DNA of 64,000 nt from Amoebophrya sp. A120 (GCA_905178155.1 CAJINV010000001.1:7741123-7805122), one strand, 5' to 3'. Counted from the stretch's first letter, positions 180 to 59,528 are shown. The notes: a model not told the origin generated them from the letters alone. A program made the numbers and translations.

Positions 180-209
180 AAATGAAGCACTGTGATACCA
201 AATCCGAAA

Positions 210-3200
210 TTAGCGTAAGTAAAAAGCACAAAAACATCTTACCTCATCACACCGGAAGCGTTCTGCCGTGCTTTCTCGCAAACGCCTGACCAGTTCCGCA
301 ATTTCTCGCGACTGCTGCGATTTCTCGTCTGTCAGAGCCTTAATATTGCGCTGCTGCGTGTCGAATTGATTGTTCTTCTCGGTCAGGTCCCGCGTGCGCT
401 GGTCCAGCTCCCGTTGTAACGCCTCACACTTCCGTTGCACCTCGTTGCGCTTCGACTGCGTGTCGGAAAGGTCCGCTTCCAGTTGGATGCTGCGCTCTTG
501 CAACCCACGCTGCTCTTCGTCCAATTCGCACTGTTGGTGAACATTTTCATTTATTTTTGATGCTCTACCACGTCTTCCTCTTCGCTTACAAAGCGCAAAT
601 GCGTGGTACATACGCATGGCAAAATGGCATGAAAACCGGAAGACAACGACAAGCTTGTGTCGAAAATAAGTACCTGAATCTTGTCGATTGCGTCGTACTT
701 TCGTTTCAGAAAAGCCATCTTGTCTTCCAGCTCCAAGACTTTCGCCTCCGCTTCTTTTCGTTTCCGTCGCTCTTCCGCCCCGACCTCTCTCTGCTGGTCC
801 AGCTGCGATTGGATGTTCTCAGCGTGCCCAGAGAGTTCCTGCACCCGCTCCAAGTGCATCTGCACGCGGCCCTCGGTGTCCAACTGCGTTTTGGTCGCGC
901 GCAGCTCGTGCTCACCAACCTGCACCTCTAAGCGGGTGTGGTGACCTTGATGTTATGTGTGGTATTTGCCGTTTTGGAAAAGCAAACGCATATTGCAAGT
1001 TCGAAGGGGGCGTGTCCGATGTGAGACGATGTGGTCGCACAAATTTGGTGACACGTGGGTGATCTGAAGAGATTAGGTAAGTACCTCGTGCTTCCGCAAG
1101 GCTTCGGTGTGTTTGCGCCAGCTCTGACACCAAGTGGTCGTGCTTCTTTTCCAGCTCGAGCTTTTGGTCGCGAAGATTAGACAGGTGCTCTTCCTATCAA
1201 GTGCAAAAATGTCTGGGTCTGGAAGAATTCACGTTTGTCATGCTTGTCTGGCATGACTCTTAAATCTGTCATGCACGTTACCCAAGAGCTCCGTTTTTCT
1301 GTGATGCAGAAGCGCAGTTTGTCATGCAAAATAGGCAACACCTAGGAGCTCAGAAACTTGTCATGCTGGGCCAGCATTTGTAGCCTCATCATGAGACGCC
1401 ACCCAACATCACAAGTTTCCAGACCCAGACATTTTTACTTTTGATACTTCCATGGTTCCGTTGAGGCTTTCGTGGTGCTGCGCGCGCCGCTCGTGTTCTT
1501 TTCGCTCCGTCATTTCGCGCTCGAGATTACCGCGGACTGATTGGAAACAAAAAGAGTGCCATTTAGAAAATCCGCTAGACGTGGGTGACGACCAGAGAAG
1601 TCTGTTCCAAGGATAAAGCAACAAGCAAAAATTACACAGCTTGCATGACGCAAGTTTTTAATACCTTGCTCTGCCTGCAAGCGAAATTCGTCGCGATCGC
1701 GCTCCACCACCGCCAGCTCGCCTTTCAGCTTCGCCAAATCAGTTTTCATGACGTCGAGCTCCTCGCGTGCCTGGCCGTAGTCGTACAGCAGCCGCTGTTC
1801 CACGCCTATTTCGTCTGCGTGCACTGCCAAGGCCCGGTTCAAAATGGACACCTCTTTCGTCAGATTTTCGTTATCCGCTCCCAGTAGCGTGGCTTCCTCC
1901 TGCGCCTCTGCCTCGTGCTTCTGACACAGCTCCAGGTCCTTCTCCAGTTGCTCAATTTTCAGCAGGTTCTTCGATGTCTGTTGCAGCTGGAAAATCCGCG
2001 CCTCCAACTTCCGATTTTGCTGCTGCGCGGTGGTCAGAGAGCTCTCCGTCTCCCGCTGCGCCTGCTTCAACTTTTCGACGGATTGCAGCTGCGTGCCGAG
2101 CTCCTTCTCCAGCCGCATATTCTGCTTCCGCAGCACAACCGTCGCTTCCCTACTTTCCGAAAATTTCGCGTCGCGCCGCTGCAACGCCTCCTCCGCTTTG
2201 TTCAGCTGCGTGTGCAGCCCTTCCACGTGTTTCCCGTGTTGGGCTTTTATCGACTCCACTTTCGTTGCCAGAGAGGTTTCCGCGACGGCAGCGGCCGGAG
2301 GCAGGATCCCCGTGGCCGCGCTCGTCGCGTGGGCAGCTAACCTCGCCACCGAAGACCCCGCTGCTACGCCGCCAGCGACGCTCTTGAACAGTCGGCTGCT
2401 CGCACTCATGGTGCTGGTGTTTAAAAGATTTCCTCTTTGCTGCAAATTGTTGTTCATGTTCATCTGGTTCCCAGAAGTCGGTGCTGAGCTGTTCCGCGTC
2501 GTGACGTTTGACGTGCCCAAGGAGGATGTTCCCAGCAAGCTTCGGTTTTCCACCGCGGCTCTACTGCTGTTCCCAGCGGTCTTCGAGTTAGACGCAGATG
2601 AACTGCTTTCCTTGCTTTCCAAAGTCGCGTGCAATCGAGCCTGGCTCCGGAGGAGACTCGCGCCCCTTGTCGATGGCTTCGCCAGCGGGGCGTTCTTCGC
2701 ACTGCTTGAGGGAGACGCTGGCTCGTAAGTTAACGACGCCGTCCGTCTTCGCCCTGCTCCGAGTTCCAATCGCTCCTGCACATCGTGGTGGTCATCCAAA
2801 AGCTGGCTCAGCTCCGCAGCGTCGAGAATGGACGAGCCCTCGACGTTGAGCAAGGGCGAGGTTGGCTTGTTCGTATTGCCCTGCTGCTCGACAGACTCCT
2901 TACTGTCTCTCTCCGCTGCATGCTCCCCCTCGGAAAGAAGTCGCCCGCGGCCGCCTTGATGATGTGAATGCAGACTCGTCGAACCAAGTAGTAGTTCCTC
3001 ATCTTGATCTGAGGACCCTGCCACCAGCCACGGTTTATTCGTCGCATCATGTTGATGCAACTTCGAGCTCGAACTCGTCACCGTCTGCAAATTTGCGTCA
3101 AAGGACCACAAGTCGTGGCTGTTCCGTAAGACACTGGATTCCGCACTCTTTCGCATCGACTGCGAGGCTAGTGAGCTGTCGTCGTGCTGAAAAGCACCCG

Positions 3201-3336
3201 TACCGAACGTGGGGCTCCGACTGCTACTAGACGACGCGATAACCGGCGGGGCGGGCCGGGATTGTTCTCTACTTCCTTCACTGTAGATGGAAGATTCGCC
3301 GGGTAACGGCGGCGGACCTCCCTTGTTTGGAGACAT
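210..3336 (-). CDS. Multi-exon coiled-coil protein with Ser-rich disordered N-terminus; 3' end probably continues beyond the window
   Basis: ORFs 1510..3342, 1409..1624, 912..1133, 551..925 and 210..617 join through GT-AG introns (~1544-1663, ~945-1083, ~590-673) and one TIR element into a continuous heptad-rich protein. GAG|GTAAG donor near 243. Confidence 0.75.
1195..1446. mobile_element. Introner-like TIR element, class A (252 bp, TSD CTTCC)
   Basis: TATCAAGTGCAAAAATGTCTGGGTCTGGAA...TTCCAGACCCAGACATTTTTACTTTTGATA. CTTCC at 1190-1194 and 1447-1451. Excision gives NGTME|EHLSNLRDQKLE in frame. Confidence 0.93.
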
Positions 3337-5142: not shown

Positions 5143-5680
5143 TTTATTCGCAGGCCAAGGCGGCAAAACTAAACCAGTCGTCAAGTTCTCGTATCAATTC
5201 TGTGAAACAATTTTACATTTTCGAAGTAAGACCCTATGTTGCGCGTACGGTATTCTCGGACGAGATGAATAAACGGAGTAGGCGTGGGCCTGCGGGCCTA
5301 AATTCCGGTGGGTTGGTCGGTTGGTTGGTTGGTTTTGGACAGACGACATTTGACCGAATTTACGAAGTATGGAGACAAATCCCTGCTCGCTCTTGGCGAA
5401 GAGCGGAAAACCATGCACCTGTCGCGAAGACAATAATCTCCTCGAAAAGATTATTGTCTCCGATTATTGTCTCACTCGCCGATACGTAGAGGTTGGAAAT
5501 TGAAAATCGGAGCCCTGCCCTCGGGGGTGGGGCGGCTCCACGGTTTTGAATTTAGAAGACAGCCGCAACGGCATGGAGGGCGAAACACGATAAGGGGGTG
5601 GTCGGGGCGCGCGGCGCACCTGCCTCCCTACCGGGGCTGCAGCCCGCCCCTGCGAGGCAGAGTTCGATGTGTCGACGCAA

Positions 5681-5965: not shown

Positions 5966-6214
5966 GCTCCGGGGGGCCTCGCGAGAATTTGCGCGAGATA
6001 GAAAGAGGTCGGGGCTCCAGTGCTGCAGTTTTCCCCAGCCGCGACCTGCGTTTCCTCAACCCAAGCAAAACACATTTGGGAAATAGAGACAAACTCGCGC
6101 AAAATTTGGATCAGCCCCCACTTGGTCATGCCGAGCGGGGGCTTCTTGCGCAACCCCTTGGCTGCGCGAGTCCCTTGCTTGCAAGCCCCCTGCTAATAAA
6201 TTGGGCCCCTGGGG

Positions 6215-7714: not shown

Positions 7715-10700
7715 TCATTGAAAAATCTGGAAGCGGAAAGAGTGTTCAGTGGTGTCTGCCTTCGCTTGCAAAAGCATAGTCACATCAACGTCTGCTCCAG
7801 CGGGCTGCAATCCTGCGCGCACAAGGTCCAGCGCGCCGGGATCACATTCCAATGTCCTGAGCACTGCCGCCGCCCGCATGACCGTGCAGGGATTTGGCTT
7901 TTTCTCGCCTCCCAGCGACACCGTTTGGTAGCCTGCGATGACGCCCCACAAGAAATCCACCGGCCCGATCGCGGACGTTCTACTCAGACACGTGAACCCG
8001 TGGGCGCATATGGCGTTCTCAACTGTTACACGATTTGTCATGCAAATTTACGGCCAAGATCGCCGCGATTAAGCTGCTTCACATGACAAATATCCGAAGG
8101 GCTAAACAGCATCCAAATCTGCGCCAAATCTGTAATGCAAAAGACGCAATCTTCCCCCTTTCACTTTCGCCGTTCTTGCATTACAAATTCATGGAACAGA
8201 TGAGAATGTAACATTTGAGAACTCCATAGCGCACTTCTGCGCCTTATGCTTCCGGTTCACCTTTTGCTCCTTGAAAAGCCAGTCGGCAATCGCTTCTTCG
8301 GTGACCATCCGCCCCCTCTCCGGAATCTGTTCGTAGACCGTCAGAGCCTTGTCCCACTGCAGGGGTGTCAAGGGAACCGACTGCCACGTCCTCCACAACA
8401 GCGGCACCACCTGCTGCACGCGGGCACGCTCGCGCAGTTCCGACGTGCGGTAGCCGCGCGCCGTGGCCGCCTCCTGCGTAATCTTCGCGAGTGTCTGCAG
8501 CGGATTCGTGACCACATTCACACTCCGCCCACGTGCGGGCGGCTGGAACTGCCCATGATTCCGGGAGGGGCGGCCGCGGGACGCACTCCGCTCGAGGTGC
8601 GAATTTGTGGTGGAGATCCGCCGGGGGGGCGGCCCGTGGTTGTGACATTGACTGTAGGACTCCGACACCCGCCCGTGCCGCTCTGGCGTGCTCGGCGGCG
8701 GTACATTGTGCAATGGACGCGCGGACGACGAGGAAACGGAGGCCTCCTCTAGAACAGCCTCGTCGTGTAAGTGTACTCCTTCCGCTGCTGGTGTGTTTCT
8801 GGTCTGGTTAATCGGCGTCACAGACGTGAGCAGCATCGGGTCACCAGACCGTTCTGGCTGTGCAGATTGATGTAGTTGGTCTCCTGACAACTCATACTGG
8901 TTGTAGTTGGATGAACTACTTCCTCCGCCGGCGTTATTCAAGGTCGGGGTGTGCTGGTTGGAAACCGGTGCACTGCGCAAGGAAACCTTATCACCCGGTC
9001 GCTTCGAGGAGGAGTTTGCCCCGGCGGGCGGCCGGGACGCGGGAGCGCTGGGAGTCGTCGTTATGGTAGATCCGTGTGCTGCTGGGAAGTGCATCTGTGC
9101 AGCTTTACCGTGCTGGTGTTGCTGTGCCGCGACCTTTTCATGATCTTCGGAGACTTGCTGCAATCCCCCGTCGTGCTGAACTATGTTGTCCGGCTGTGCG
9201 GGATCCGCAACCACTGGCTGCGGTTGCTTCGAGGGCGTGCTGGTATAGTGCGCTGGCGCTTGTTGCGTTTGCAGAGCAGCGGCAGAGGAAGCCGAAGTGG
9301 AAGTAGTCGTTGCTGCCAGAAAGAGAGGGTTTTGAGAGAAATCCCAGCTGGTCAGCGAGTCTAACGCCAAATACGGTGCCCCCTGCTCGTCCGCACGGAC
9401 TGTTGGCTTCATCTCCTTGTCCATTGGGAAAAGAAGTTCCGACATTGCGCTCGCTTCCGTTTTTTTCTCTTGCTCTCCTCCAGTCCTGGAGTTCCGCCTT
9501 GGCGTCAACTCAAACAGCTGCTCGGGCCAACGCGAACCCTGTCTGCGCCGCGCCTTCTCGGATAGCTGCAGCCGATTTATCGCAGTAGAAACTGCGCCAC
9601 GATTAACGTCGCCGCTCCCTGCGCCGCCGTCACTATCTGTGGCTTTGCTTCCCCTGTCGCCATCCGCCTCCAGCAAGTCGCTCAACAGCGCCCACGCCTC
9701 TCTGGGTGCCCGAGTGGCGATGCGCCGGACCCTGATTCGCAGCGTCGTCCGCTTCTCAGATACCAGATGTAGCATCGCGGCCTCACTTTCGACTAGTCCG
9801 CCGACGTCGCAGCAGGAGTTCAAGCTTATTTCTAGCGGTAGAGTCCACGATATCCCGGATTTTGGAAAGGATTTTTCACCGCTCCGGATTATTGCACGAA
9901 CTCGAGGATTTTTCTTCACAAAATCCAGCGCTGTTGTGCTTGATGTAGCACCACTTGTTGAAGCCCCATCCACTGCAGGAAGAGATGAAGTTGTCGAGGC
10001 CATAGAAGCAGATGGATAGAACAGTTCTTGCAAGAGCATTCTTTCCTTGCTGCTTCCTTTTTCCGGATGGGGGAGCACGACAGGTTTTGTAAACGCGTTT
10101 AGTTGCTCCAGCGACTGCAGCGAAGATGAAACTCCGGTCGGCAGACAAAGAAAACCACTCGGAAGCAGGGCCGCAAGACTCATGAACTCGAATGCGCGGT
10201 TCAGCAGGTCGAAGAGACGCCCGCCGAAGGGTTCGCCGAAACGGCGGTCACATTCTTGGCGAAAACCGAGATGCGCGTTCACGTGGCGGTTTTCGTGAAG
10301 GCCACGAAGAAGAATGATATTCTGCGGGTACAGAATCTTCAGCGAGAACAGAAGTGCGAGCTGTGTCGGGTGTTACGTTTCAGAATCCGATATTAAGGGC
10401 TTTAGCCGGTTATGTTTCATCGACTCTACAAACTTACATAGATTGATGAAACAAGGAACATGCACCCTCAGCTGCAAAATTCGAAATCAATGCGACTAAA
10501 AAACTCGTTTACAAATGTGCTATACATAGCTCTAGTACCAGGTCAACTTGATTCGTTCCCCGGTCCACATAGTCGCCGAGAAAAACATACTGCGTGTAAC
10601 TCAAGTCTCCCGACTCCAACTCCGGCACTGGACAGCCGAAGGACTGGAAGAAACTCAGGAGGTCCACCAGCTGGCCGTGCAACCCGCCGAAGATTTTCAC

Positions 10701-13388: not shown

Positions 13389-16300
13389 TCACGCCCCACG
13401 CGTGGACAGGAAGGGTTTCTTGGCCATGGGCGAGGTGCCGAGGATGAAGTTCTGCTGTTTGACTTGGAACTGCTCGGAACCGTTCGCTCCGTTCGGGTTC
13501 GCGCCCATCCGTCTCGGCTGTTCATCATTCAGAGTGTACGTTTCGTCGTCGTGGGGACTGACAAACTTTACGTAGGGATTCCTTCCCGTCGGCCCATTGC
13601 GGACACTGGCGAACTCCGCGCGCCGGCGCAGCGACTCTTGCAAATTCACTTCCTGTTGCTGCGAAGTGAGGGTTGCCTGCTGCTGGCTGATGTTATTTCC
13701 TTGCTGAAACTGCATGTTGTTGTTTCCTGCGAAGCTCGAGGAGCTGGCGGTTTGCTGATTGTAGTTCAGCATGTTGAGGTGCGTCGGCTGCTGGTACTGC
13801 TGATGATGTTGATGACCACTACCGTTCGACGCCATGAAATTGTTCCCGCCCTGCATGTTCATGCTGAACAAGTTGTTGTTCGACGAGGAAGCGGCAGCAG
13901 CCGTGTTTCCCATCTGCTGGTCGTTGCCTTGCTGCTGAAAAAACTGGTTGATCATCACATTGTTCTGCTGCGCGTGCGTGGCCACGACGCCCTCCATAGG
14001 AACGCCGGCAGTGTTGTTTCCGGTGTTGGTTCCAATGTTGCTAGCCTGCTGCTGAGAAGCGGCCGTTGTGCCGTGGTAGCTGGGTTTCGCGAGGGAAAAA
14101 GGGTTCTCGCGGGAAACCATCGCGGGCGGGGCCATACCACAGGACTCATCACGACTCACATCACCGCTGGGCTGACGCATTGAATGCCAGGAGTTAGAGG
14201 AGTTCGCGGTAGGCTGTATTGCGTTTTTTTTTTGCCGATTGGTATCGACAAAAACAAATGAAATGTAGTTTGCATCAAATTTTTACAACAGTAGATCAGC
14301 TTTAACATTTACATTCGTGATCGTGCCCCATCTAAGAAGGAAAAAACAAGTATACCTGACTCGCGTGCGCAGCGGCAGAGAAATGGTCCTTGACCATGCA
14401 GTGGGTGTGCATGCGGTTCATGACGAACAGCGGGATCTCCTCCGCGTTGGACTGCGCGATGGTCAGTTCCTGGCCTTCGGAGTGGGAGGATCGGTGGAAC
14501 ATGGCCTTCAACCCGGTGTAGTTCGGAATCTCCGCAAATTCCAAGGTCTGGCAGTACAGCACAAAGTACAGCAGCTTTTCTGGGACCTGGATTTTTTTTA
14601 ACGTATATTTTCGGGGAGCGATATTAGTCACCCCCATGCTCAGGAATGTTGTCAACTTCTACCTTCTAAAATCGTCCCCCCGCATTCAACAGTCAGAAGC
14701 GATACAGCCTCGAACCATGTTCACGAACCATGTTCACATTCTCATTCAGCGACTTTATCATACCTTTTCACGATTCAGCTTCGGCAAATTCCCCTCGATG
14801 AGATCGTCCGGGCGCGTAGTCATGGTGGTTTGGAACAAGCCCAAATCGCACTTTTTGTCCGGCTTCTTGGAGTTCTGCACGGCAGACCGGCGGATAAAAA
14901 CCTTGGTTTCGTCGTTGGTGCGCTGCAGCGCAGCGGCATACGGGGTCGCGTTACGGGACGGGTTGGCAAGAATCTCCGCAATGTCGACCTGGAGAGAAGT
15001 AGTACGAAATTTTTCTTCACTAAAACTAACTCGATAAGAATCATGTCGGCGGGACCTTGCTACATTCATCAGACGAATAAGTAGGCAGATAAATTATTCG
15101 CTACGTGCACTCACAATTATACGCACCAACACACTCTGAAAAAGGAGGAGTCAAATATTACCTTGTCCTCAAACAGCACAGACAGCATCTCCCAGTAGGG
15201 TTCCAGAACCGCGGACCTCCAGGCCTTGAAACTACGGTTACCCATCACCAACCACAAAAGCAGGTAGGACAAAGATTCCAAGTCATCGCGACGGGATGGC
15301 TGGCAACGGTACCTGATAATGAAATGGTGAAACCTTCTTCAAGTTTTGCACCTTTATGAATGAGAACCTTGTGCTGACAAACAGCCAACCAGGCGAAGAG
15401 AACTTCTCAACCGACCAACATGATCTCAACAAAAATCCTACCTAGACGCCCTGGAACTGTAATCCATGCTGCCACAGAACCGGCAGTGCCTCTTGGGCTT
15501 GGTATTTTCGGCGACGAAGTAGCTCATACCCAGGTCGATCAGCGCCAGTTGATCAGAATTGGTGACCACGTCCGTTTCCAAGGTGCGATTACGATCGCGA
15601 AAGACGACGTTCTGCGGCTTCACGTCGTGGTGGAGGACCTTATCAAATGTAAAAATGTCTGGGTCTGGAAGAATCATGGTGTTTCTGCATGACACAGAAG
15701 GTCTGGCATGGAAGCTCTAGCATCACAGGCTTCGAGAAGCTTCCGCAATGCCGAATCCGCATGACAATCCCCCATTTTGGTGACAGAAAGTGAGCAGCTT
15801 TTGCTGCCTATGCATCAGAGATTTTTGTGTGTTCTGAAATGCGCATCACAAGTTAGTACATCCTTCCAGACCCAGACATTTTTGCATTTGATAAACCTTC
15901 ACCTTGTGCAACTGTTCCAACACTTCGATCATCTTCTCGGCGATTATCCACAGTAAATTTCCTGTGCACGTACAAACGCGGTTTCTGCATGACAAAACTT
16001 GCCTTCGATCCTAGTCCAGCATGACAAGTTGGCCTCTGCAAGTTAGCGAAATTTGTCATGCATTTTGTACATGTACAGGAAATTTACATTGCATAGCGAT
16101 CACGTAGATCGAACGCAGCTCCATGGTACTGCCACGGTTCGGGACCTAGTGTCGTGCCATTTTATTTTTGAACACAGAAAGGTAAGTTTAATCTCACATC
16201 GAAAGCGAAGGGTAAGTTTAATCTCACAGTATTCAATTCTTGCAAAAAAACAGAGCTAAAAAATGTAATGAAACGAGCAGATCGAGTTTGTTTCATACGT

Positions 16301-18225
16301 TCAATCCCTGTTCGATCTGCTGTGCGCGCTTGTTGCAGACCGCCTGCAGCTATGGATTGCAAAAATGTCTGGGTCTGGACGATTCTGCGACTTGTAATGC
16401 TGTCTTTGGATTCCAAAAGAATCTGTATTGCATGACCAGCAACAGGACTCCAGTTTGTGTATACGCGGAGAGGGCATTTCTCATGCGGAATAGGCATTAG
16501 GAAGCTACCTAAAAATCTGTGTTGCTAGATCATGCATTAGAGACATCAATCATCATACAAAATATGCATGACGAGTCTGCATTCTTCCAGACCCAGACAT
16601 TTTTGCATTTGATAGCAGCATCATGCGAATGCTGGGTCCGAACAGCTCGAGTGCCAGGTAGTCCGGCTTGGGATCCTGCTCTGAGTGCGAGCCGTGCAGC
16701 GCAGCAATTCTGGTGTCGAACAGACGCGGGATGGCGGACACACGGTGCTTCACGCAGTGACTGTAGATCGCGTACTCCTTCTCGAAACCCTTGTTCTTCT
16801 GCGCTGTGCGGTTGCCGACCTTGAGAGCGCACAACTCATTGTTCACGCGATCAAACGCTTCGTAGACGACGCCTTCACCACCAGAACCCAGGAAATTGCG
16901 AATGTCGAACCGGGCCGTACCAAGATCCGGGATTTCGTGTTCCTAATTTTTTACTTTGGAACAGTAAATCGTTGATTTGTCACGCATGAATTTTGCGACA
17001 TGCTTCACTCGCGCAAAAAGGAGAAACAAACGAGGGGCTAGGATACATGGTAGAGCTCAAGAATTTATTTGTACCCACAAGTCTATCGCTTGATTCGCCA
17101 AGGAAAAAAATGGAGGAAGAAGCTGTGTTCACAAACACCCATTCTGTTAGTAAGTGGAAGTACTTACCTCATGCTCCACCATCGCTGCGGCTGCAGAAGC
17201 AGCCCCACCGTGCTGATGGTGCTCCGGCGTCGGTGCGCTGCCGTTCGTGTGACCCGTGTACAGTTTGCTAGGGCTATCGGACAGGAGCACACGACTGGAC
17301 CGGTCCACGTTGAACAAGCCCGAGGGGGTGTTACCCGCGGCGTACATCGTTTGCTGCGGTCCGAGCTGCACAAAGTTCTTCGACGGAGTCTGCATCTGCT
17401 GCTCATTCTGCTGCGGTTGTTGATGTCCTCCCTGCTGCACCACGACTTCGTTGTTTTTCGACGGCAGAGATTGCAGCGACTCCTTCGAAGACGGCGCTTT
17501 GGTCGTGTCGCCACTGATCGTGCGCTTGTTCTGGTGCGACGCACTGGCGTTGCGGGAGAGGCTGGGCGCGCCCCACTTCTGAATCAACGACTGCGTCGCG
17601 TTCATTTTGCTTCCACTGGCGTTCTATGCATTGCAAATATGCCTGGGTCTGGATGGATTCGAATTTGTGATGCAAATTCTACATCATGACAAAATCTGCC
17701 ATGTTGCATGGTCAGCAAAAGGTCCCGCTTCCTGTTACAGAAAAAGAGCATTTGTCATGCGGATTAGGCATCGAGATTACCTACTCGGGATCTGTAATGC
17801 TAGGGCTTGCAAACTAGACAATCCGGGCTAGGCAAAAACTGCATCACAAATGTCCGCACTCCTCCAGACCCAGACATTTTTGCATTTGATACGTTCAGCG
17901 TCGGAGTGGATTCGACGTGCGCACGGCGCTTCCTCCTTCCGGAGGGCGAAACCGAGGGAGAGGTGGAGGGTAACCGGGTTGTAGTTGTCGTGGTGCTCAC
18001 GACCCGGGCCGGACTGTTTGCTTGGCGGTTGCGACGCGGGCTCTTGCTCAGCGTGTTGATTTTCTGGCTGCTCTGCGACCCGCGATGCAGGTTGGTGCCG
18101 CTGTTCTGTCGGCTCGAGGATCCGAGTGTCGCCTTATTCGGGGTGGTGGAAGACCTGTTCGTCTGCGTCGCCTGCTTTGGTTCGTCCTCTCGGTTTCTAA
18201 AGTAGCGCGTCTGCAGAAACCACAT
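13389..18225 (-). CDS. Casein kinase 1-family protein kinase with long low-complexity N- and Q/N-rich C-terminal extensions (many exons)
   Basis: FLGSGGEGVVY, CALKVG, YLALELFGPS, LHHDVKPQN, LIDLGMS, FCGSMDYSS and the CK1 hallmark SRRDDLES. Continuous only after removing four TIR elements and several GT-AG introns. Confidence 0.85.
15641..15893. mobile_element. Introner-like TIR element, class A (253 bp, TSD GACCT/AACCT)
   Basis: 30-bp class A TIRs with a 4/5 direct repeat. Excision gives LEQLHKVK|VLHHDVKPQN. The only copy readable as GT-AG (15896 to 15639). Confidence 0.92.
15945..16095. mobile_element. Introner-like TIR element, class D (151 bp, TSD GCGAT)
   Basis: Left TATCCACAGTAAATTTCCTGTGCACGTACAAA vs right reverse complement TATGCAATGTAAATTTCCTGTACATGTACAAA. 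GCGAT at 15940-15944 and 16096-16100. Excision gives RSIYVIA|EKMIEVLEQ. Confidence 0.9.
16351..16614. mobile_element. Introner-like TIR element, class A (264 bp, TSD GCAGC)
   Basis: TATGGATTGCAAAAATGTCTGGGTCTGGA...TCCAGACCCAGACATTTTTGCATTTGATA. GCAGC at 16346-16350 and 16615-16619. Excision gives GPSIRMML|QAVCNK. Confidence 0.92.
17625..17891. mobile_element. Introner-like TIR element, class A (267 bp, TSD CGTTC)
   Basis: Class A TIRs. CGTTC at 17620-17624 and 17892-17896. Excision joins ORFs 17800..18225 and 17147..17605 (TPTLN|ASGSKMNAT). Confidence 0.92.
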
Positions 18226-21548: not shown

Positions 21549-23694
21549 TTACCCCTGGAATCCGCCCTTGGGGAACTGCGTGGGCTGCAGGATCATGTCC
21601 GGATCCTCCTTGTGCCTCGTCTTTGTTATCACACAGAAAAAAGCTGGCAGGTAATGCAAAAATAAATACACAAAAAAACATGGCATATCTGCCGAAACAG
21701 CATTCTATAGGGCCGCCCATGACAAGTTTTTCTTTTTCTGTGTATTTATTTTTGCATTACAAATATGCCATGCCAGCTTTTTGCTCTGGGATATTTGTTC
21801 GGTAGGAAGCCGTGGTAAAACTGTACCGCGGTGCGTTGCCGTACGGGGTCACGATGGCGCCACCCAGTGTCGTCAAATGCTGTTTCATTATTTGTCTTGA
21901 TTGTAATTTGCAACGCAATTTCCTTTCCGCGTAAAAATGCGAAGAGCGCATATCCAACTAGATCACGCATAACAAACGTAGCTATTTGTACCTTGTACTG
22001 ACCCGGCCCCACGCCCGGTGCCTTTGGGTTCACGCCCAAGTGCGATTCCATGCTTGGCCGCAAGCCCGTACCAATCTTGGTTTCCGTACCGACCGGCTCT
22101 TCCACCTGTGTGAAGTTGAGGCTGTACTTATCCCAGGGAAAAATCCCCCTCCCCACATCGAAAAGGTACGTCGCAGAAAATTTGCAATGCTGATTTGCGA
22201 CCACAAATGATCTCTGTCTTGCAAGAAGGCAATTCCACAGGCTCCGCCGCATTATGCAGGCGGTTTGTGGTGCTGTTTGGCCTACAGCGCAGACGCTTCT
22301 CATGCTAAGCGCCTAGGCCAAAACCTCTCTACTCAGGCTTGATGTGGGCCTGCAGTCCTCTTCAGCAAGACAAATCTGATTTGTGTACTCAAATCCAGCA
22401 TCACAAATTTCGTTTTCGATATGGGGAGGGGGGACTTTTCCTTTTGATAGTACTTGCCCGGCCCCGGCCGTTTGTCGTCTTCGGGATTCTCGTAGAACCA
22501 GTTGTGTCGACCCGCAAACTATCAAATGCAAATATGTCTGGGTCTGGAAGAGTGCCAGGTTTGTCATGCATATTTCGCATGACCCATGATGTCTGTGATG
22601 CATGCCCTAGCATCACAGATTTTTAGAGGACTTAGTGATGCCTCTACCGCATGAGAAATGTCCTCCTCACGTAGCCCCAACTGGATTCCTCTTGCTGGTC
22701 ATGCAACACAGATTTTTTTTGAATCTAAAGACAGCATTAGAAGTTGCAAGCTTCCAGACCCAGACATATTTGCAATGCATACAAACTTGATCGTAAGCGT
22801 GGAAAGCGTCGGGTCGTTTTTGTTGTTTTTGTCCCGAACCTGTAGTTTTTGTTTCATGGATGTGCTGCCTGTCATGCAGTATCATCATGATTACTCTTTT
22901 GCTTTCGGTGTCGCGTTGCTTCCCATTGGAAAATCTCGCTCAAAAACATTAATTTTAATTTTTCAACTTCGTGTTCATACCTCGTACTGACCCGGTCCTG
23001 GGCACTTTGGGATGGATTTTGGCAAGCCTGTAATGTCTGGTCGTGTGCTCTTTCCGAAACTAATGTCACTCCGTCGAATCGTACTGCGTGCCGTCTCGTA
23101 TTGACCTGAAGAGTGGATGTAGAATGATTGCTGTCTGTCGATGGAGCCAAAACAGGCGATGAAGTGGAAGTCTGTCATCGTCATGCACTCCAAAATTATT
23201 ACGCATTGACAATTTCATCAAATGGAATCAAACTATACCTGGTCCGCCCGTTGTGTTGTCACCGTAGTTTCGTGCCCACCGTTTTGCGGAGCCAAAGCTG
23301 CATGAATACGTCAGCTGCCCGTATTTTGAGGTGTGTTTCGTCATTTCCCGCACATCGTACCTTGGATTTTTTTGCAAAATTTTTGCCCTGACATGGTATC
23401 CATGTGGCTGAAAAAAAGAAACGGTATCGTATTCTGCTTCTGTTACTGCTAAAAGACATGATGCATTTTTAGTGGTTTTAATAGGTAAAGATAGATACAG
23501 ATCTATGTCGTGATGAAAAAAAATCAAATCAATCGTGTAAAGTACTTGTTCGCAGCTGGGATGTTCTGGTTTCTCTCGATGACCTTCCATTTTCCCGTGA
23601 CTGAGTATCTTGGACCAGCTTCATACTGTGAGAATCTCTGCAAAACGGGAGCGCTGGCACTCCGGTTGCTTCCTACCGGCTTATCGTCTGGCAT
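21549..23694 (-). CDS. ODF3/SHIPPO-like sperm-tail PG-rich repeat protein (multi-exon)
   Basis: Repeated P-G-P-G-x-Y units across exons (NIPAANKY, KCPGPGQYE, KRPGPGKYS, GVGPGQYK). Start MPDDKPVG at 23694, stop after FPKGGFQG at 21549. Two TIR elements. Confidence 0.72.
22129..22449. mobile_element. Introner-like TIR element, class B (321 bp, TSD GTACT)
   Basis: Left TATCCCAGGGAAAAATCCCCCTCCCCACATCGAAAA vs right reverse complement TATCAAAAGGAAAAGTCCCCCTCCCCATATCGAAAA. GTACT at 22124-22128 and 22450-22454. Excision gives PGPGKY|SLNFTQ. Confidence 0.9.
22520..22781. mobile_element. Introner-like TIR element, class A (262 bp, TSD CAAAC)
   Basis: Class A TIRs. CAAAC at 22515-22519 and 22782-22786. 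Excision gives TLTIKF|AGRHNWFYE. Interior is the reverse complement of the 16351/41335 subfamily. Confidence 0.92.
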
Positions 23695-37000: not shown

Positions 37001-37931
37001 GTAAATTTAGATTTCTGAATGCAAAAATCTTTTTCTCAGTCGAAAAGATCGAGCGATGCGGTAGATCTTAGCTAAATTTCCAAAACATGCGCGATGATGA
37101 TGAAATCCAGCACATCATCAGTACCATCCATCTCCAACATGGCCATGGCCAAACCTCGCACGTCTTCCGGAAGTTTCTGCGAGACTTGCAAAAAGCTCTC
37201 CTGCGCAACGGACCCGAACTTGCTTTGGTGTCTCTCGATGATTTGAATTGCTTTCTCTAAGGCCATTACTGATTCCTCGTAGTCCGCCTTTTCCAACAGG
37301 TACGCCTTATGCTCCTCCTCTCTGGTTTTGGTTGCCTTTTCCTTCTTCGCGTTTCTGTCCGCGATGGTGGCTTGCAGTTCTGCAATGTTCTCTGCTATTT
37401 CCTCCATGTCGGCGTATCAAATGCAAAAATGTCTGGGTCTGGAAGAGTCCGAAGTTGTGATGCACATTTCACAACACAGAAAAATCTCTCATGCACGGGT
37501 AGCGAAAGCTGCCCCCTTTCTCTCACCAAAGTGGGGGATTTGTCATGCGGATTCGACATTGCGGAAGCTTCTCGAAACCTGTAATGCTAGAACTTCCATG
37601 CCAGGCCTTCTGTGCCATGCAAAAACAGCATGACTCTTCCAGACCCAGACATTTTTACATTTGATACGGCGGCGGCTTGAGCAATGCTGGCTTCGAGGTC
37701 GGACTTCTGATCTTTCAACTCCCCGACAGAAACTGTGAGTGCATCCAACCGGTTTGTGCACCACTGATTTCTCGCGGACCACGCAACCTGTTCGTCCTTC
37801 ATCTCTTTTGTCCCGGCCTTGTGCATTTCGGTGAGGAGTTGTATTACTTTCCCAAGTTTCCCATCCTGCGCCCCCGCAACCACTGATGCAGACAGCGCCA
37901 GGAGTCTAAACCGCGACCCCCTGGCCCGCAT
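34088..37931 (-). CDS. Secreted, internally duplicated coiled-coil protein (dinoflagellate 'FLQ'-type; candidate extrusome matrix protein)
   Basis: Signal-peptide-like MRARGSRFRLLALSASVVAGA. Two homologous halves: GKVIQLLTEM...ESFLQ...TGGVLGILE and VKVKGMIKTM...MFLQ...ATGVLGILE. Five TIR elements and at least four GT-AG introns. Confidence 0.8.
35205..35354. mobile_element. Introner-like TIR element, class E (150 bp, TSD CTTTG/CGTTG)
   Basis: Left TATGCAGTGCAAAAGCATCGTAGTCGTA vs right reverse complement TATCCTGTGCAAAAGTATCGTACTCGTA. 4/5 direct repeat. Excision gives MKKY(N/K)AAADKY. Confidence 0.88.
35866..36117. mobile_element. Introner-like TIR element, class A (252 bp, TSD CTTGT)
   Basis: CTTGT at 35861-35865 and 36118-36122. 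Excision gives ELEALDK|AIEILGG. Reverse complement aligns end to end with element 1195-1446. Confidence 0.93.
36247..36455. mobile_element. Introner-like TIR element, class F (209 bp, TSD CACAC)
   Basis: Left TATCCCACGAAAAAACTGTTTCACTGTGA vs right reverse complement TATCGTGAGAAAAAACTGTTTCGCTGTGA. CACAC at 36242-36246 and 36456-36460. Excision gives EELLVVC|KDDLKD. Confidence 0.9.
36676..36927. mobile_element. Introner-like TIR element, class C (252 bp, TSD GCCAC)
   Basis: About 49-bp TIRs containing GTTACAATCTCAAACGTTACAATAGA. GCCAC at 36671-36675 and 36928-36932. Excision gives YEAKTGG|VLGILEK. Confidence 0.92.
37415..37666. mobile_element. Introner-like TIR element, class A (252 bp, TSD CGGCG)
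   Basis: CGGCG at 37410-37414 and 37667-37671. Excision gives IAQAAA|DMEEIAE. Reverse complement aligns with element 15641-15893. Confidence 0.93.
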
Positions 37932-39358: not shown

Positions 39359-43791
<4,433 letters not shown>

Positions 43792-54789: not shown

Positions 54790-55376
54790 GATGTGGCTTT
54801 TTCGTCGTGTCACACCTGGTTTCCAAGCTTCGAGCTCAAGATTAGATGGCTCACTCCGTTACAATCAAGAAACTACAAACTCTGTGTTGCACATAGGTGC
54901 TCTCAATTTCGCATCAACAGCTGATGGGTCTCGGGTAAATCTAAAAAACCTGAAGTCGGATATTAAGCTAAGCGTAGCGATAGATCGATAAAGCTTCCCT
55001 AGGAAGCGAGTGATTGCGATATTCGAAAATCTAGTAAAAAAGAACGCACTTTGACGCTCTAGCGAACATAGAACCAGCAGGAACAACTGCATGAAGCCTT
55101 TCCAGAAGTTCTGTTTTTTCAAACATAGTCGTCGGGCCCACTCGGCTCTGCTCACCAGATGCTACACGTAGGTAGCAGGCTGCATGATCTTTGATGCGAA
55201 GAGAGCTCGAACTGATCCTGTAACAAAGCTGTGTCGACGTCCACGCGGAATGATTGTTTGTATGTATAAAAACCACGCGAATCCGTTTCGCGCTTCGCCC
55301 CATGGAAACGTCCAGAAAAGAGCCAGCGAAAATTGCAAGAACATTCACAGACAGAGTTGCTTCATCTCTCATCAAA

Positions 55377-58300
55377 TCACATCTCACGCAGCTTCTTAAT
55401 CCCCTCATCAAGAGCCGAGATTATCTGAGACGTTCGCACCGCTTGCGCCTGGAACTCCTGGTCGAACGTCAAAAAATCTGCTTTGAGCTGCTCGAAGCTT
55501 TCCTCTGCCGTGTCCTTCCCGCATGTCAAAAACGCCACCGCGGTGCTCATTTCGCGATGAAGGTCGTGAAGACGGTCCGAAATGCCTTGAATATCTGCCA
55601 TAAGGGTCGAGGTGCGAGATATCCGCATCTGTGCGTCGTTTCGCGAAGCCGGCCCCTCGAGTCGGCGCGCTGCGCGCTCTGCCACATCAAGCAAATCGGT
55701 GAAGCCGCCACAGTTCTCGCGGTACTCGTCTACACAGCTGCGCGCATTGTCAAACTCGGCCTTGGTGGAGATACTTTCTGCTTCGGTGGTAAGCTGCTGT
55801 TCTGCCGGGAGACTTTTCGCAGCAGCATGGTCTTCGCCCAACGGCGTGATGTCCTCTGATGGTGTCGCGTTGGAAGTAGCCGAAGGGAAGGCTCGCGGCG
55901 TTTCCAAATCTTCAATCGATGCGGCTGCAGGGCGACCGGGCCGGTATTCGCCACCTCCCACGCACTGCCCAAACTTGATTCCATCCGATTCGGGCGATGA
56001 CGACCGCGCCCGACTTTTATTGATGGCTCTCGCTTTTTTCTCTTTTTTCCGATTCCGGTGCCTGCGTTTTTCCTTTTTCTTCTTTTTCGCTCGCGGTGTT
56101 CGACGTCGCTGTGGCGAACTCGATGATGATGAGACTCTTGAACGACTGTAGTGACGTCGTATTACAATGAAAAATGCACCCATCCCGATTAGCAGAAGCT
56201 TCTCATGAGAATTTTCCGATTCCAAGTGAAAGCTTTATGTCTTGCATGAAAGGACTATATGAGTCTTTCTGGCGCAAAAGGTATCTTTTGCATGACAGAC
56301 CCGCCTGCTGTTGGGCTTCTTTGCAACACATATTTGAGCTATTCAGCATGGAAATCTGTGATGTTGCTGATACATATTTATATGCAAGACGGGGAGCGTT
56401 TCTATTGGAAAGGTTTGCAATACGAATCCTGCCAAGTCCTGGGGCGGGAGCATTTTTCACTGTAATACGTCGCTGTCTACTTGCGTTGCTCCTGCGCCGC
56501 CGTTTTTCTCCTCTTCGCCCCGATCGTGACTCGACACCCCGAACACGGCGCCCGTAATAATCTTCGTCCGAAGAGATCGGGACGCTCGCACGAACGCGCG
56601 AGAGACTTCTGCTGGAGCTCGAGGGCGCGCTGTTTCGTCGTGCAGGCTTCCTTGCTTGCGCGGAGCGTCTCCTTCGTCTGCTCGTGCTTCTACCTCGTGT
56701 CGGACTCTCCGCCCCTTTCTCTCCACCGGGTACTTCAACAAAGTACTTCGGGCCGCCGGCATTTTCGGCAGACAGTGTCACCTTGATATTTATAAAGTGC
56801 TTGGAGTGCCAAGATGATTATAGTGCATTTGTCAACAAGAGTCGAGCCTCTGCGCAAGAAGAACTATCGCGCACACAGCGCGCAAGGCCTCAAAACCGGA
56901 ACTGGTTTCATGCACTGCATACGGTACCTGGAGGCACTATTGCTTCTTGCTGCGTAACTGACAAGCACCTCTGAGCTATGTATTGACCACAAAGAAAACG
57001 GGGCATGATAAGCAAGTATGGGAACTATACCCAGCCTAGCGTGTGCGGCAGAAGAGGTTCGCCCCGCTTCCCGCTCTTTCCCTCCGACAATGGGCCTGGC
57101 TCCATTTCTTTGCTTGCCTGCCGTATGTCTCGGACCAAGTGCAGACACCTGTAAAAAATTAGAAGCATCCACTGTCGCTTGCTAGTGAGCCCCATCATTA
57201 TAAAATGCTCTTGCATGAATAAACAGACTGTGTACGTTTCTGCATGCGAGTGCTACACTGGCTAGAACAACAGAAAGACAAACAACAGCGCCCCATAAAG
57301 AGTGTCTACCAGTCCAGAATGGTTTTGGCGCTCCTCTCTCCCACAATCCTTGCAAACCTCCGCACAAGCGCATCGCCGATCTTGCCGCCCTCGGCGACGC
57401 GTGCATCTTCGTTTTGTTCGCGGTTCTTCAAAAATGTTTTCACCTCCACCAGTTTTCGCGTTGCTGGGACGTGTTCCTTTTCTAGCTCCTCCCATAAGAT
57501 CTCCGCTTCCGCGGCGGCTAGCTCGCCAAAAACTGTCCACGTCGGCGGTTTTGCGGTGCTACTTCCACAGCCTACAGGCAGTCGGTTTGCTGGCAAGCGA
57601 ATGGGCATGCGTTTGACGAAGCCGTCGCAGCCGGACTCGAACTCGCCGAACTCGAACTCGACAGGACCCATTTGCTCGACGGTTTGCCCTTCGGCGAGCA
57701 CTCCTAACTGCTTAGAGGACAGGCACTTGCTCGAACGCATCACCACCCCGGTCCGCGCTACTTTCCAATTTTTTTTTGGAAGCGCATTCCGAGGTACGTA
57801 TTGCTGCGCGCTTGTCGAAGTGGTCCGCTGCGGTGGACGCATCCCGTGAAGCCCCGGCGCGATGTACGGAAACGGGAGAACTCTATCACATGAGGTCGGT
57901 GATGTTCGGCGGCTGTTGCCCACCTGGTGTGATGCTGTAGTGAGGCTGAGCCTTCGCCGCTTTGTGCCTGCTTCAGTCCCTGAACACGATGCGTCGATGT
58001 CCTCACCAAGAAAACCGTTTCTACCATGTGAGCCAGTCGCGCGGGTCGACGAAAAAAGCGAAGCCGCCACACCAGTCGTGCTGTGTTCCGGTTCGGCGGA
58101 CAAAGCCGCGACGGTCGCGAGGGTCAGAGGCTGCACTCCCCCGACATGCTCCGGACGCAGGGCGTCTACGAGCGCCGCGGCCCGAGACGGGCCGGCTTCC
58201 ATTCGGCGCCGCGAATACGCCTCGTAGAGCAAACTGCCGCAAGCGCTTACCTCCTGCTCAGTGCGGCCGACTATGTGCGCCACAAGGTCTCCCACCTGTC

Positions 58301-59528
58301 CGCCCGGCAACTCCTGCGAGTGCTTAGCAGCGGGCCCCGGCAGCGTCGGTCTTTGCACGCAAAAAGTGTCAAAATTTTTCCCCGGGAGGTGCTGCGTCAG
58401 ACTGAAATCAACGAGATGATATCGCTTTACCAGGTCGCCAATTTTATCGCTCACCGCCGGGCCGTCGTACGGGTGCAACGGCACAAATCTCTCGTAGACG
58501 CTCGTATTTCCAAACCGCTGCTGCAGGTTGGTCTTGTGGCCCTTGTCCGTCAGGGTTATGAACAGCCCATCACTCATATCCCGTGTAAAAACGTCTCCAC
58601 CCCATCACCAAATGCAAAAATGTGTAGGTCTGGGAGATTGCGACATTTGTCATGCACATGCTATTCTGGCATGACTCCGAAGTTGGTATTGCGTGGCCGC
58701 GAAGAGCCCCTCTTGCTGGTCATGGAAAAACGCAGTTTCTCATGCGAAGTACGCAACGAACTCAGAAGCGTGTCATGCTTGGAAGCGCATTACAGTTTTC
58801 TCACTACTCCCTTCCTTGCATCACAGGTTTCCAGACCCAGACATGTTTGCCATGCTGCATGCTGTATATGCAAATTTGGACGCTGAGAATGTTTCTCATG
58901 CGGAGCCTCATGTTGATAGTGGTGCCCTGAGCTTTGTTATGCTCAAATCAGAATGATAAGCTGGATCTGTAACGCTGCTGCACTAGCTAAACACGACGAT
59001 ACTACGACGAGCCCAAATTACTCATGTGCAACAGCCAAAGCTTCTTCATTTGTCTTGCAGATTTCCCAACTTGACTACGGGGCGGGGACGTTTTTCCTCG
59101 CAATAACTCACGCTGGAAAAGCGGAACTGAAATTCGTGCTGCAGCTTGTGCTCGTCCACCAGCTCCTTCGCGTTGACCTCCTCCCCGGGCCGGGCCACGA
59201 TGTAGGCCAGGGCGCGCCTATTTGTGAGCGCATAGTAGACGGGTTCGGATCCGGGTGCCGCAGATGGGTGCCGTGCCACTTCCAGAATGTTGCCCTTCAA
59301 AACCGTGTCCGGATCCTTCGGGCTCGCGCTCTTCAGCTTGTCGATCAGGTTTTGAATTGGGCCGAATTTTTTGTCCGTAAAATCCCGACTGATGGTCTGC
59401 TGCGTGAAGCGAATCTGGCTGGTATTCAGTTTAATGCGCCTGTACGCGGGCGCCGCTTTCGGCTCCGGGGCGGACATTCCACCCTTATTCTTGCGCCCCC
59501 CGGACTCCCAAACCCAGCCACTATACAT
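55377..59528 (-). CDS. ParB/Srx-like domain family paralog 2 (ParB-like + KH-like + split SH3-like + RS-rich + helical tail; about five exons)
   Basis: IRFTQQTIS...YYALTNRRALAY. ORFs 59046..59528, 57306..58577, 57025..57216, 56203..56781 and 55377..56225 join via two TIR elements and two GT-AG introns, one with the same GGCTGG|GTATAGTT donor as paralog 1. Confidence 0.72.
56160..56467. mobile_element. Introner-like TIR element, class B (308 bp, TSD CGTCG)
   Basis: Left TATTACAATGAAAAATGCACCCATCCC vs right reverse complement TATTACAGTGAAAAATGCTCCCGCCCC. CGTCG at 56155-56159 and 56468-56472. Excision gives ASRQRR|HYSRSR. Confidence 0.9.
58577..59105. mobile_element. Introner-like TIR element, class B, carrying a nested class A copy (529 bp total, TSD ACTCA)
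   Basis: Left TATCCCGTGTAAAAACGTCTCCACCCC vs right reverse complement TATTGCGAGGAAAAACGTCCCCGCCCC. ACTCA at 58572-58576 and 59106-59110. Excision gives FRFSSVS|DGLFITLT. Confidence 0.9.
58606..58858. mobile_element. Decayed class A element nested inside the class B element
   Basis: CACCAAATGCAAAAATGTGTAGGTCTGGGA...TTCCAGACCCAGACATGTTTGCCATGCTGC, ~253 bp. Interior resembles the 1195/28306/35866 group. Terminal TAT/ATA and TSD are degraded. Confidence 0.8.

What the first reader, a model, noticed from the sequence alone, without database searches (positions are those of the whole stretch)
1195..59105. Seventeen TAT...ATA TIR elements of six classes sit in coding exons and behave as precise non-canonical introns
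Seen: 17 elements (150-321 bp, one 529 bp) in 8 genes, each with 22-49-bp TIRs, TAT/ATA ends and a 5-bp direct repeat (15 perfect, 2 with one mismatch). Deleting the element plus one repeat restores the frame every time, including next to conserved motifs (CK1 LHKVK|VLHHDVKPQN, protease GYFRM|KYG, PGPGKY|S). Only one can be GT-AG and one GA-AG; 28306 offers neither GT nor AG. Established: IR/DR-bearing non-canonical 'introner' introns have been reported in Amoebophrya genomes, and to my knowledge their excision and mobilisation mechanisms are unresolved. Inference: a MITE-like superfamily removed from RNA by TIR pairing rather than by ordinary splice dinucleotides.
Basis: partly seen in the sequence, partly recalled or inferred. 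Interest (0 to 1): 0.85.

Follow-up and report, generated by a model that had tools for sequence, protein, structure and literature searches.

The report
Transposon introns removed without GT-AG signals
Small hairpin-ended DNA inserts interrupt protein-coding genes of what is likely a parasitic dinoflagellate (Amoebophrya), and RNA-derived contigs lack exactly the insert plus five bases; this is an already published kind of mobile intron, likely cut out by the spliceosome reading the insert's own ends instead of the usual GT-AG signals.

Summary
Observation confirmed; the phenomenon is already published. I find 18 (not 17) TAT…ATA inverted-repeat elements with 5-nt direct repeats, all in coding exons. 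RNA-like contigs skip exactly element+5 nt at 8 of 9 laid elements (the ninth indirectly), together with ordinary GT-AG introns; a DNA run keeps them. They match the Amoebophrya A120 introners of Farhat 2021; Gozashti 2025 lists one A120 family as Ginger-like, 5-bp TSD, TA/TA ends. Not found in the papers I read: (i) a sharp 5-nt repeat across TIR classes (212 of 276 in a related assembly); (ii) removal in either orientation, with GT-AG possible in 4 of 107; (iii) two imperfect repeats leave one common cut, 1 nt before TAT and 4 nt after ATA, which puts TAT where host donors have GTA(T/C); (iv) an internal TGT(C/G/A)ATGC motif in all classes at helically phased spacings. Likely: non-autonomous integrase-type transposons spliced by a relaxed U2 spliceosome. 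The register rests on two junctions, pairing versus linear signal is unresolved, and a reverse-transcription artefact is unlikely but not excluded. No transposase found. Interest 0.45.

The parts
1195..1446 (-). Class-1 element (252 bp), 5-nt repeat GGAAG, in a coiled-coil gene; GA-AG possible
8009..8228 (-). GTTACA-class element (220 bp), repeat TGCGC, in an EF-hand-containing gene; no GT or AG
15641..15893 (-). Class-1 element (253 bp), imperfect repeat AGGTT/AGGTC, just before the kinase catalytic loop; RNA keeps the downstream base; only GT-AG-compatible site
   Evidence: joint 15636>15895, 258 nt, in X3 and X5; Pkinase hits
15945..16095 (-). 151-bp element, repeat ATCGC, CK1-type kinase gene; no GT or AG
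   Evidence: joint 15939>16096, 156 nt
16351..16614 (-). Class-1 element (264 bp), repeat GCTGC, kinase gene
   Evidence: joint 16345>16615, 269 nt
17625..17891 (-). Class-1 element (267 bp), repeat GAACG, kinase gene
   Evidence: contig pieces 17167-17619 and 17892-18512 are adjacent in record coordinates, 272 nt skipped (table 8)
21627..21793 (-). 167-bp element, repeat ACAAA, PG-rich repeat gene; no GT, GC or AG in any of 7 equivalent cuts
   Evidence: joint 21621>21794, 172 nt; cuts
22129..22449 (-). C-rich class element (321 bp), repeat AGTAC, after PGPGKY
   Evidence: joint 22123>22450, 326 nt
22520..22781 (-). Class-1 element (262 bp), repeat GTTTG, inserted opposite to its relative 16351
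   Evidence: joint 22514>22782, 267 nt; orientation
28306..28547 (-). Class-1 element (242 bp), repeat ATGAA, papain-family protease gene; no GT or AG
   Evidence: RNA-like contig piece ends exactly at 28548 with 448 nt left and downstream depth fits a skip; joint row not shown; Peptidase_C1
35205..35354 (-). 150-bp element, imperfect repeat CAACG/CAAAG, coiled-coil gene; RNA keeps the upstream base
   Evidence: joint 35199>35355, 155 nt, 1 ambiguous letter
35866..36117 (-). Class-1 element (252 bp), repeat ACAAG; opposite orientation to its relative 1195
36247..36455 (-). 209-bp element, repeat GTGTG
36676..36927 (-). GTTACA-class element (252 bp), repeat GTGGC, 74-nt arms
37415..37666 (-). 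Class-1 element (252 bp), repeat CGCCG; opposite orientation to its relative 15641
41335..41596 (-). Class-1 element (262 bp), repeat CGCTG, polo-like kinase gene
56160..56467 (-). C-rich class element (308 bp), repeat CGACG
58577..59105 (-). Composite element (529 bp), repeat TGAGT: C-rich class outer element of about 276 bp
58606..58858 (.). Nested class-1 copy (253 bp) inside the 529-bp element; both TAT ends changed, no direct repeat left
   Evidence: TIR scan

Best explanation
These are short inverted-repeat elements flanked by a 5-nt duplication that RNA-like contigs lack precisely (element plus 5 nt), matching the published Amoebophrya A120-type introners; they likely spread as non-autonomous DNA transposons and are likely removed by the host's U2-type spliceosome reading the element's own ends rather than GT-AG. 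Steps: (1) Shown: anatomy, exonic position, high copy number, precise removal in 8 of 9 laid cases, both orientations, no need for GT or AG. Identity with the published class about 0.93. (2) Inferred, about 0.75: an integrase-like DDE transposase acting in trans makes a 5-nt staggered cut; TAT/ATA is its cleavage end, TIR positions 9-29 and the phased internal TGT(C/G/A)ATGC motifs are its binding sites. (3) Inferred, about 0.5: in the pre-mRNA the TIR stem (positions 9-29) holds the ends together; the 5' cut falls 1 nt before TAT, so TAT fills donor positions +2 to +4 (host donors are GTA, mostly GTAT or GTAC) with +1 relaxed to any base; the 3' cut falls 4 nt past ATA with no AG. Because one copy of the duplication leaves with the element, the original coding sequence is restored at any insertion site.
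For: Precise joints in two RNA-like samples of one study, in contigs that also skip ordinary GT-AG introns; the 7 RNA joints listed have 0 contigs in DNA run X1; record coordinates add up with no extra letters for the 21.5-23.7 kb gene (1707 nt) and for 17625. Element depth in X1 is 10^4-10^5 against about 45 for single-copy DNA (not a copy number). Related assembly (152 loci): longest exact repeat is 5 nt in 212 of 276 TIR pairs, 30 more have one mismatch; GT-AG possible in 4 of 107, neither GT nor AG in 29 of 107; orientation 9:10, 2:4, 13:8. 22520 and 16351 are 79% alike in opposite orientation and both are removed. 15641 allows cuts -1 to -6 and 35205 allows 0 or -1, so -1 is the only shared one. 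9 of 9 RNA-confirmed ordinary donors are GTA; +4 is T 5, C 3, A 1. Elements fold at z -2.4 to -11.3, ordinary introns at -0.9 to +1.1. Motif: 54 in 4,613 nt versus 5 in 59,387 nt; in 238 of 242 relatives; same-direction spacing 31-33 nt in 125 intervals over 13 TIR cores, first motif 30-34 or 40-44 nt from the end. A120 keeps nearly all spliceosomal proteins and U2, U4, U5, U6 (PMC7789003). One A120 family is listed as Ginger, 5-bp TSD, TA/TA.
Against: The register rests on two junctions, both flagged 'between: not known', and each has a more ordinary reading (GT-AG at -3 for 15641; TA-AG at 0 or GT-AA at -1 for 35205). The G before TAT seen in 9 of 18 here (p 0.049) was not reproduced: 41 of 124 (33%) against 30% in flanks, so there is no sign of selection for a GT donor. 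No branch motif was visible in host introns or elements. U1 snRNA was not found in A120. All RNA evidence is cDNA contigs from one study, labelled RNA by a guess; hairpins flanked by direct repeats are known reverse-transcription artefacts (PMC8240250). No transposase was found: five 457-972 bp elements carry passenger DNA with no Pfam match in 11 frames; Farhat found no transposase in A120. TSD is 5, not the usual 6 of IS3EU/GingerRoot. The motif is unbiased by host strand (210:207), which fits a DNA site but cannot exclude an RNA role.
Confidence: 0.55

Rival explanations
1. Same elements, but removed by a spliceosome-independent or strongly altered cut-and-join route that recognises the paired TIR stem, releasing circles or linear RNA.
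For: Predicted stems pair TIR positions 9-23 with mean probability 0.85-0.99; no dinucleotide preference in 124 strand-called relatives; removal in both orientations; U1 snRNA not detected in A120; euglenid introns give circles, not lariats (review PMC11282704).
Against: TIR symmetry is expected from transposition alone; positions 4-8 are mismatched in about half; the shared cut is asymmetric (1 nt before, 4 nt after) and mimics the host donor; in the closest animal case the U2 spliceosome does the job (bioRxiv 2025.08.15.670264).
Confidence: 0.2
2. Spliceosomal, but with no fixed register: the TIR brings the ends close and the cut slides within the 5-nt repeat to whichever near-canonical dinucleotide is present, always removing the same length.
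For: 15641 can be GT-AG and 35205 can end in AG; Farhat draws the splice sites as variable relative to the hairpin (figure legend); annotated A120 families show mixed donors.
Against: 21627 has no GT, GC or AG in any equivalent cut and is removed exactly; 29 of 107 relatives have neither GT nor AG; independent sliding of the two ends would give other lengths, which none of 8 joints shows.
Confidence: 0.17
3. The skips are made in the tube: reverse transcriptase jumps across a hairpin between direct repeats, and the elements stay in the real mRNA.
For: Hairpin plus direct repeat is the exact substrate of published false introns (PMC8240250 passages); all RNA data here are cDNA contigs.
Against: Retention truncates a kinase at its catalytic loop and other ORFs, with up to five elements per gene; at 35205 the product carries the upstream copy, whereas an enzyme stalling at the stem base would be expected to have copied the downstream copy first (inference); the listed long contig pieces show only the skipped form.
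Confidence: 0.05
4. The elements are excised from DNA in some cells or stages, so the RNA simply copies an element-free template.
For: Transposon anatomy; a run labelled RNA by guess may hold DNA.
Against: The DNA run has 0 contigs for the 7 RNA joints listed and its contigs run into element ends; the same RNA-like contigs also lack ordinary GT-AG introns. Contigs drop rare variants, so low-level excision is not excluded.
Confidence: 0.03

Closest known systems
Amoebophrya A120 introner elements (Farhat et al. 2021, PMC7789003)
   Same: IR starts TAT, seven variable bases, then a run of A; direct repeats 3-5 nt; about 240 nt; repeated; RNA-supported non-GT-AG introns; no transposase inside.
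   Different: The text I read gives 8-20 nt IRs, 3-5 nt repeats of variable position and variable splice sites; here TIRs run to about 29 nt, the repeat is sharply 5 nt and abuts TAT/ATA, one cut register fits, and an internal motif is shared by all classes. Figures 3, 4 and S19-S25 could not be seen and may show some of this.
A120 introner family 38, 'Ginger', and other A120 TIR families (Gozashti et al. 2025, PMC12130899)
   Same: 5-bp TSD, TA/TA termini, TIR DNA class; many families of 150-320 bp with about 30-nt TIRs and mostly non-canonical ends.
   Different: Family 38 is about 808 bp with integrase-like ORF homology; nothing like that was found here. Other rows I saw (41 of 58) are 'Unknown' superfamily with automated TSD calls of 2-6.
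IS3EU/GingerRoot transposons (PMC10045372)
   Same: TA..TA termini, integrase-related DDE group.
   Different: TSD usually 6 bp, here 5; no transposase seen; not described as introns in the passages read.
Fritillaria borealis MITE-derived non-canonical introns (review PMC11282704; bioRxiv 2025.08.15.670264)
   Same: TIR plus TSD elements turned into introns and removed by a U2 spliceosome.
   Different: Preferred AG-AC/AG-AT ends and a TAC target; here no target or dinucleotide preference.
Euglenid nonconventional introns (PMC12501133 abstract; PMC11282704)
   Same: Ends brought together by pairing, cuts at fixed distances from the paired motif, TSD-like repeats.
   Different: CAG/CTG signature, purine at exon start, circular products; short pairing rather than 30-nt TIRs.
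Micromonas/Aureococcus introner elements (review PMC11282704)
   Same: Non-autonomous DNA transposons whose TSD leaves with the intron.
   Different: They build canonical GT/GC-AG sites from element plus TSD; these do not.

Membership tests
Amoebophrya A120-type introner elements | IR begins TAT, 7 variable nt, then three or more A | tested here: met
   TAT in 36 of 36 ends by construction of the scan; A at position 13 in 36 of 36, at 11, 12, 14 in 30-32 of 36; definition. TAT in 348 of 370 class-1 ends in a scan that did not require it, though the loci were fetched with a TAT pattern
Amoebophrya A120-type introner elements | 3-5 nt direct repeat at the borders | tested here: met
   5 nt in 18 of 18 (16 perfect)
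Amoebophrya A120-type introner elements | Removed from RNA without GT-AG | tested here: met
   8 of 9 laid elements, 7 of the 8 with no GT-AG option
Amoebophrya A120-type introner elements | Repeated in families | tested here: met
   pairs 77-87% alike in the window; depth in X1; up to 97.6% matches in related loci
Amoebophrya A120-type introner elements | Host genome is Amoebophrya | tested here: inconclusive
   GC 51.4% against 51.2% for A120; all modelled genes on one strand; best named relative of one window protein is the dinoflagellate Prorocentrum, 52%. No named Amoebophrya match was shown
MITE / non-autonomous TIR transposon | TIRs, constant TSD, no coding capacity, high copy | tested here: met
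MITE / non-autonomous TIR transposon | Autonomous partner with the same TIRs and a transposase | tested here: inconclusive
   no genome held; five long elements in 408 kb had no Pfam hit; 0 matches in viral contigs
IS3EU/GingerRoot | TA..TA termini | tested here: met
IS3EU/GingerRoot | 6-bp TSD | tested here: not met
   5 nt in 212 of 276, 6 or 7 nt in 0
IS3EU/GingerRoot | IS3-like DDE transposase | not testable with these tools
   no autonomous copy in the DNA held
A120 family 38 (Ginger-like) | 5-bp TSD and TA/TA termini | tested here: met
A120 family 38 (Ginger-like) | Integrase-like ORF homology; same TIR sequence | not tested
   the family's sequence was not seen; no ORF match in elements here
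Canonical U2 intron | GT(GC)-AG ends | tested here: not met
   GT-AG possible in 1 of 18 and 4 of 107
Canonical U2 intron | Donor positions +2 to +4 like host consensus | tested here: inconclusive
   TAT fits GTA(T/C) if the cut is at -1; two junctions only
Canonical U2 intron | Lariat formation, spliceosome dependence | not testable with these tools
   contigs only
Euglenid nonconventional intron | Pairing of intron ends | tested here: met
   predicted folds only
Euglenid nonconventional intron | CAG/CTG (N3CDG…CHGN5-6|R) signature | tested here: not met
   ends read TAT-N7-AAAA against the signature
Euglenid nonconventional intron | Circular excision product | not testable with these tools
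   no raw reads of this strain

The most novel reading that the evidence does not exclude
The tens of thousands of 'patternless' non-canonical introns of this lineage obey one rule, N|TAT…ATA-NNNN|: the spliceosome has dropped both the +1 G and the AG and reads a transposon end, so one integrase-type transposon superfamily, unified by a shared helically phased internal motif, can land anywhere in coding DNA in either orientation and be removed without a scar.
Probability: 0.35. Interest if true: 0.75.

Novelty: already known. Interest (0 to 1): 0.45.

Why it matters
How Amoebophrya removes more than 60% of its introns without GT-AG, and what moves them, was left open in PMC7789003. A fixed cut register, orientation independence and a shared internal motif would reduce that to a few point mutations and one genome-wide count of imperfect repeats. 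If true, it shows a spliceosome retuned to a transposon end, which makes exonic insertion nearly free and explains mass intron gain. The elements themselves are not new.

Tried and rejected
No whole genome was held, so no genome-wide transposase search. G enrichment before TAT (9 of 18) rejected after 41 of 124 in relatives. No target-site preference in the 5-nt repeat. Using AT-versus-GC bias in 17 imperfect repeats of relatives to infer which copy is intronic was uninformative by hand count (6 versus 5). Variant ends (13 elements: 5' TAC x3, TGT, CAT; 3' GAT x2, TAC, TGT, TAG; 3 unplaced) fit a donor-like 5' end but are too few and mostly transitions. Farhat's Table S4 lists only N-T donors among the 9 predominant A120 motifs, which fits -1, but aligners favour these half-canonical motifs (my knowledge), so I do not count it. 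Raw RNA run X9 laid 13 reads, on elements only, none on exons: uninformative. No listed holder was on record as RNA. The 3884-nt length of the protease model was set from the contig length and is not a test. Class-1 pattern in viral contigs: 0. 11 frames of five long elements and 2 exons of the PG-rich gene: no Pfam match. Earlier findings of this scan: none. No decayed or lone TIR outside the 18 elements except the nested copy and two weak 9-mismatch hits. Roy et al. 2023 was not held.
Full report
1. Observation. A scan for TAT…ATA pairs with inverted-repeat ends and a 5-nt flank repeat gave 18 elements and one internal pair without a repeat, which I dropped; 20 shuffled windows gave 0 or 1 hit. 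Sixteen repeats are perfect and two have one mismatch. Nine elements share one TIR (class 1); the rest fall in five or six further classes. All lie inside minus-strand coding frames; with a rough hand estimate of 66% coding DNA, 18 of 18 has p about 5e-4. Hosts include a CK1-type kinase, a polo-like kinase, a papain-family protease and an EF-hand protein (Pfam; 7 of 12 pieces matched). Removing element+5 nt opens the frame where element alone, other sizes or retention do not, with two caveats: the test at 1195 did not discriminate, and retention of 28306 gives an ORF of similar length with a different end.

2. RNA test. Two lays covered 9 of the 18 elements. Contigs of X3 and X5 (two samples, one study, RNA by the tool's guess) skip 258, 156, 269, 172, 326, 267 and 155 nt at 15641, 15945, 16351, 21627, 22129, 22520 and 35205, each element length plus 5; record coordinates give 272 nt at 17625. 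The same contigs skip ordinary GT-AG introns, and DNA run X1 has no contig for the 7 RNA joints listed. For 28306 the contig leaves the genome exactly at the repeat and downstream depth fits a skip, but the joint row was among 11 not shown. Most joints are flagged 'between: not known'; for the 21.5-23.7 kb gene and 17625 the record coordinates leave no room for extra letters. 21627 offers no GT, GC or AG in any equivalent cut.

3. Where the cut falls. Perfect repeats hide the cut; the two imperfect ones do not. At 15641 the RNA keeps the downstream base at repeat position 5 (cuts -1 to -6 relative to TAT); at 35205 it keeps the upstream base at position 4 (cuts 0 or -1). The only shared cut is -1: intron = one base + TAT…ATA + four bases. 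Nine RNA-confirmed ordinary introns all start GTA, with T, C or A at +4 (5, 3, 1), so TAT would fill +2 to +4. This is two junctions, and each has another reading (GT-AG at 15641; TA-AG or GT-AA at 35205).

4. A larger sample. They have no exon match to the window but elements up to 97.6% identical. Of 276 TIR pairs, 212 have an exact 5-nt repeat, 30 one mismatch, and 34 more (some are mis-paired ends); none has 6 or 7. A coding model gave the host strand for 124 of 242 (sign correct for 18 of 18 window elements, but training overlapped some host genes; 96 of 98 same-locus pairs agree). G before TAT is 41 of 124, at background, so the window's 9 of 18 is chance. GT-AG is possible in 4 of 107, neither GT nor AG in 29; orientation is unbiased. 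No RNA was tested for these loci.

5. Anatomy. The two ends match at positions 1-3, poorly at 4-8 (9-13 of 18) and well at 9-29 (same in 242 relatives): a cleavage end, a spacer and a binding region, as in IS-type ends (recalled). Predicted RNA folds close the TIR stem (z -2.4 to -11.3; ordinary introns -0.9 to +1.1). All 18 carry TGT(C/G/A)ATGC or its reverse: 54 in 4,613 nt against 5 in 59,387 nt, and 238 of 242 relatives do. Same-direction copies lie 31-33 nt apart in 125 intervals over 13 TIR cores, and the first inward copy starts 30-34 nt (64 ends) or 40-44 nt (217 ends) from the end; copies of one family are not independent, but the phasing by about 10 nt recurs across classes. I read these as transposase sites (inference). 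Five long elements hold passenger DNA without a Pfam match.

6. Mechanism. Most likely: an integrase-like transposase in trans inserts the element with a 5-nt duplication into coding DNA; a relaxed U2 spliceosome then removes element plus one copy, guided by the element's ends. Rivals: a pairing-driven, spliceosome-independent route (0.2), a sliding register (0.17), a reverse-transcription artefact (0.05; the anatomy is that of published false introns, but retention breaks conserved genes and 35205 keeps the upstream copy), DNA excision (0.03).

7. Literature seen. PMC7789003: abstract, passages, sections 10, 11, 12, 16, supplement passages and part 3 of 5 with Table S4; figures not visible. 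It reports A120 IRs as TAT, seven variable bases, three or more A, 3-5 nt repeats, 29,850 repeated introns, no U1 snRNA, no transposase in A120. PMC12130899: passages and 41 of 58 A120 rows of supplement file 8, plus a term search (files 13-14 not searched): family 38 is Ginger, 5-bp TSD, TA/TA. PMC10045372, PMC12005148, PMC8240250 and bioRxiv 2025.08.15.670264: passages (preprint supplements closed). PMC11282704: passages and section 6. PMC12501133: abstract and opening text. Roy 2023: not held. Searches showed no paper giving a fixed cut register or an internal shared motif for these elements ('subterminal' occurs 0 times in the Farhat and Gozashti papers); unseen figures and subscription papers may hold either.

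8. Verdict. Real, RNA-supported and already known as a class; the organism is likely Amoebophrya of the A120 type but was not named by a tool. The added value is a concrete, testable splice rule and a shared motif, both still inferences. Interest 0.45.

Noticed in passing
window 58606-58858: A class-1 copy nested in the 529-bp element has lost TAT at both ends (5 of 6 bases changed) while the other 54 TIR bases differ at only 5; a nested copy may be selected against keeping splice-competent ends. One case.
   Followed up: partly
window 16146-35110 (nine ordinary introns): Ordinary introns start GTA in 9 of 9, are 112-225 nt, and mostly have A-rich 3' ends with no pyrimidine tract or visible branch motif.
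   Followed up: partly
window 5290-5350 and 7400-7500; 5690-5960; 6200-7330: Intergenic block of GC-rich tandem and inverted repeats (about 70-nt units at 6200-7330), bracketed by an inverted repeat of roughly 70 nt near 5270-5350 and 7410-7500; possibly a larger, different mobile element.
   Followed up: no
window 1-180: Short tandem and palindromic repeat array (about 41-nt units) at the window start.
   Followed up: no
window 53419-54790, 57309-59480, 60117-61990, 62408-64000: Four divergent paralogues in tandem share a domain (…QFTQDNISRDF…YAISNRRAYAY…); one carries an element (58577) and the others do not, a possible empty-site comparison. The 57309-58571 piece had no Pfam match.
   Followed up: no
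L024 3314-3770, L046 571-1051, L047 3315-3945, L023 632-1465, L073 4024-4995: Long elements with intact ends and 5-nt repeats carry 200-700 nt of passenger DNA; two share a (CAT)n tail-like stretch, and in L073 the insert is flanked by a duplication of about 19 nt that includes the internal motif.
   Followed up: partly
window 28132-32007: Papain-family protease whose catalytic domain is split by about 400 residues of low-complexity sequence; the RNA-like contig covers the insert.
   Followed up: no
window 15641-15672 (run X9): A 2026 RNA run with the same species label holds the class-1 TIR in other flanks but nothing on this window's exons, so the family likely exists in another strain at other sites.
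   Followed up: no
window 15894-15944, 22450-22519: Elements leave exons as short as 46-65 nt between them, and these are joined correctly in the RNA-like contigs although neighbouring class-1 TIRs could pair across elements (one search shows 15641 pairing with 16614).
   Followed up: no
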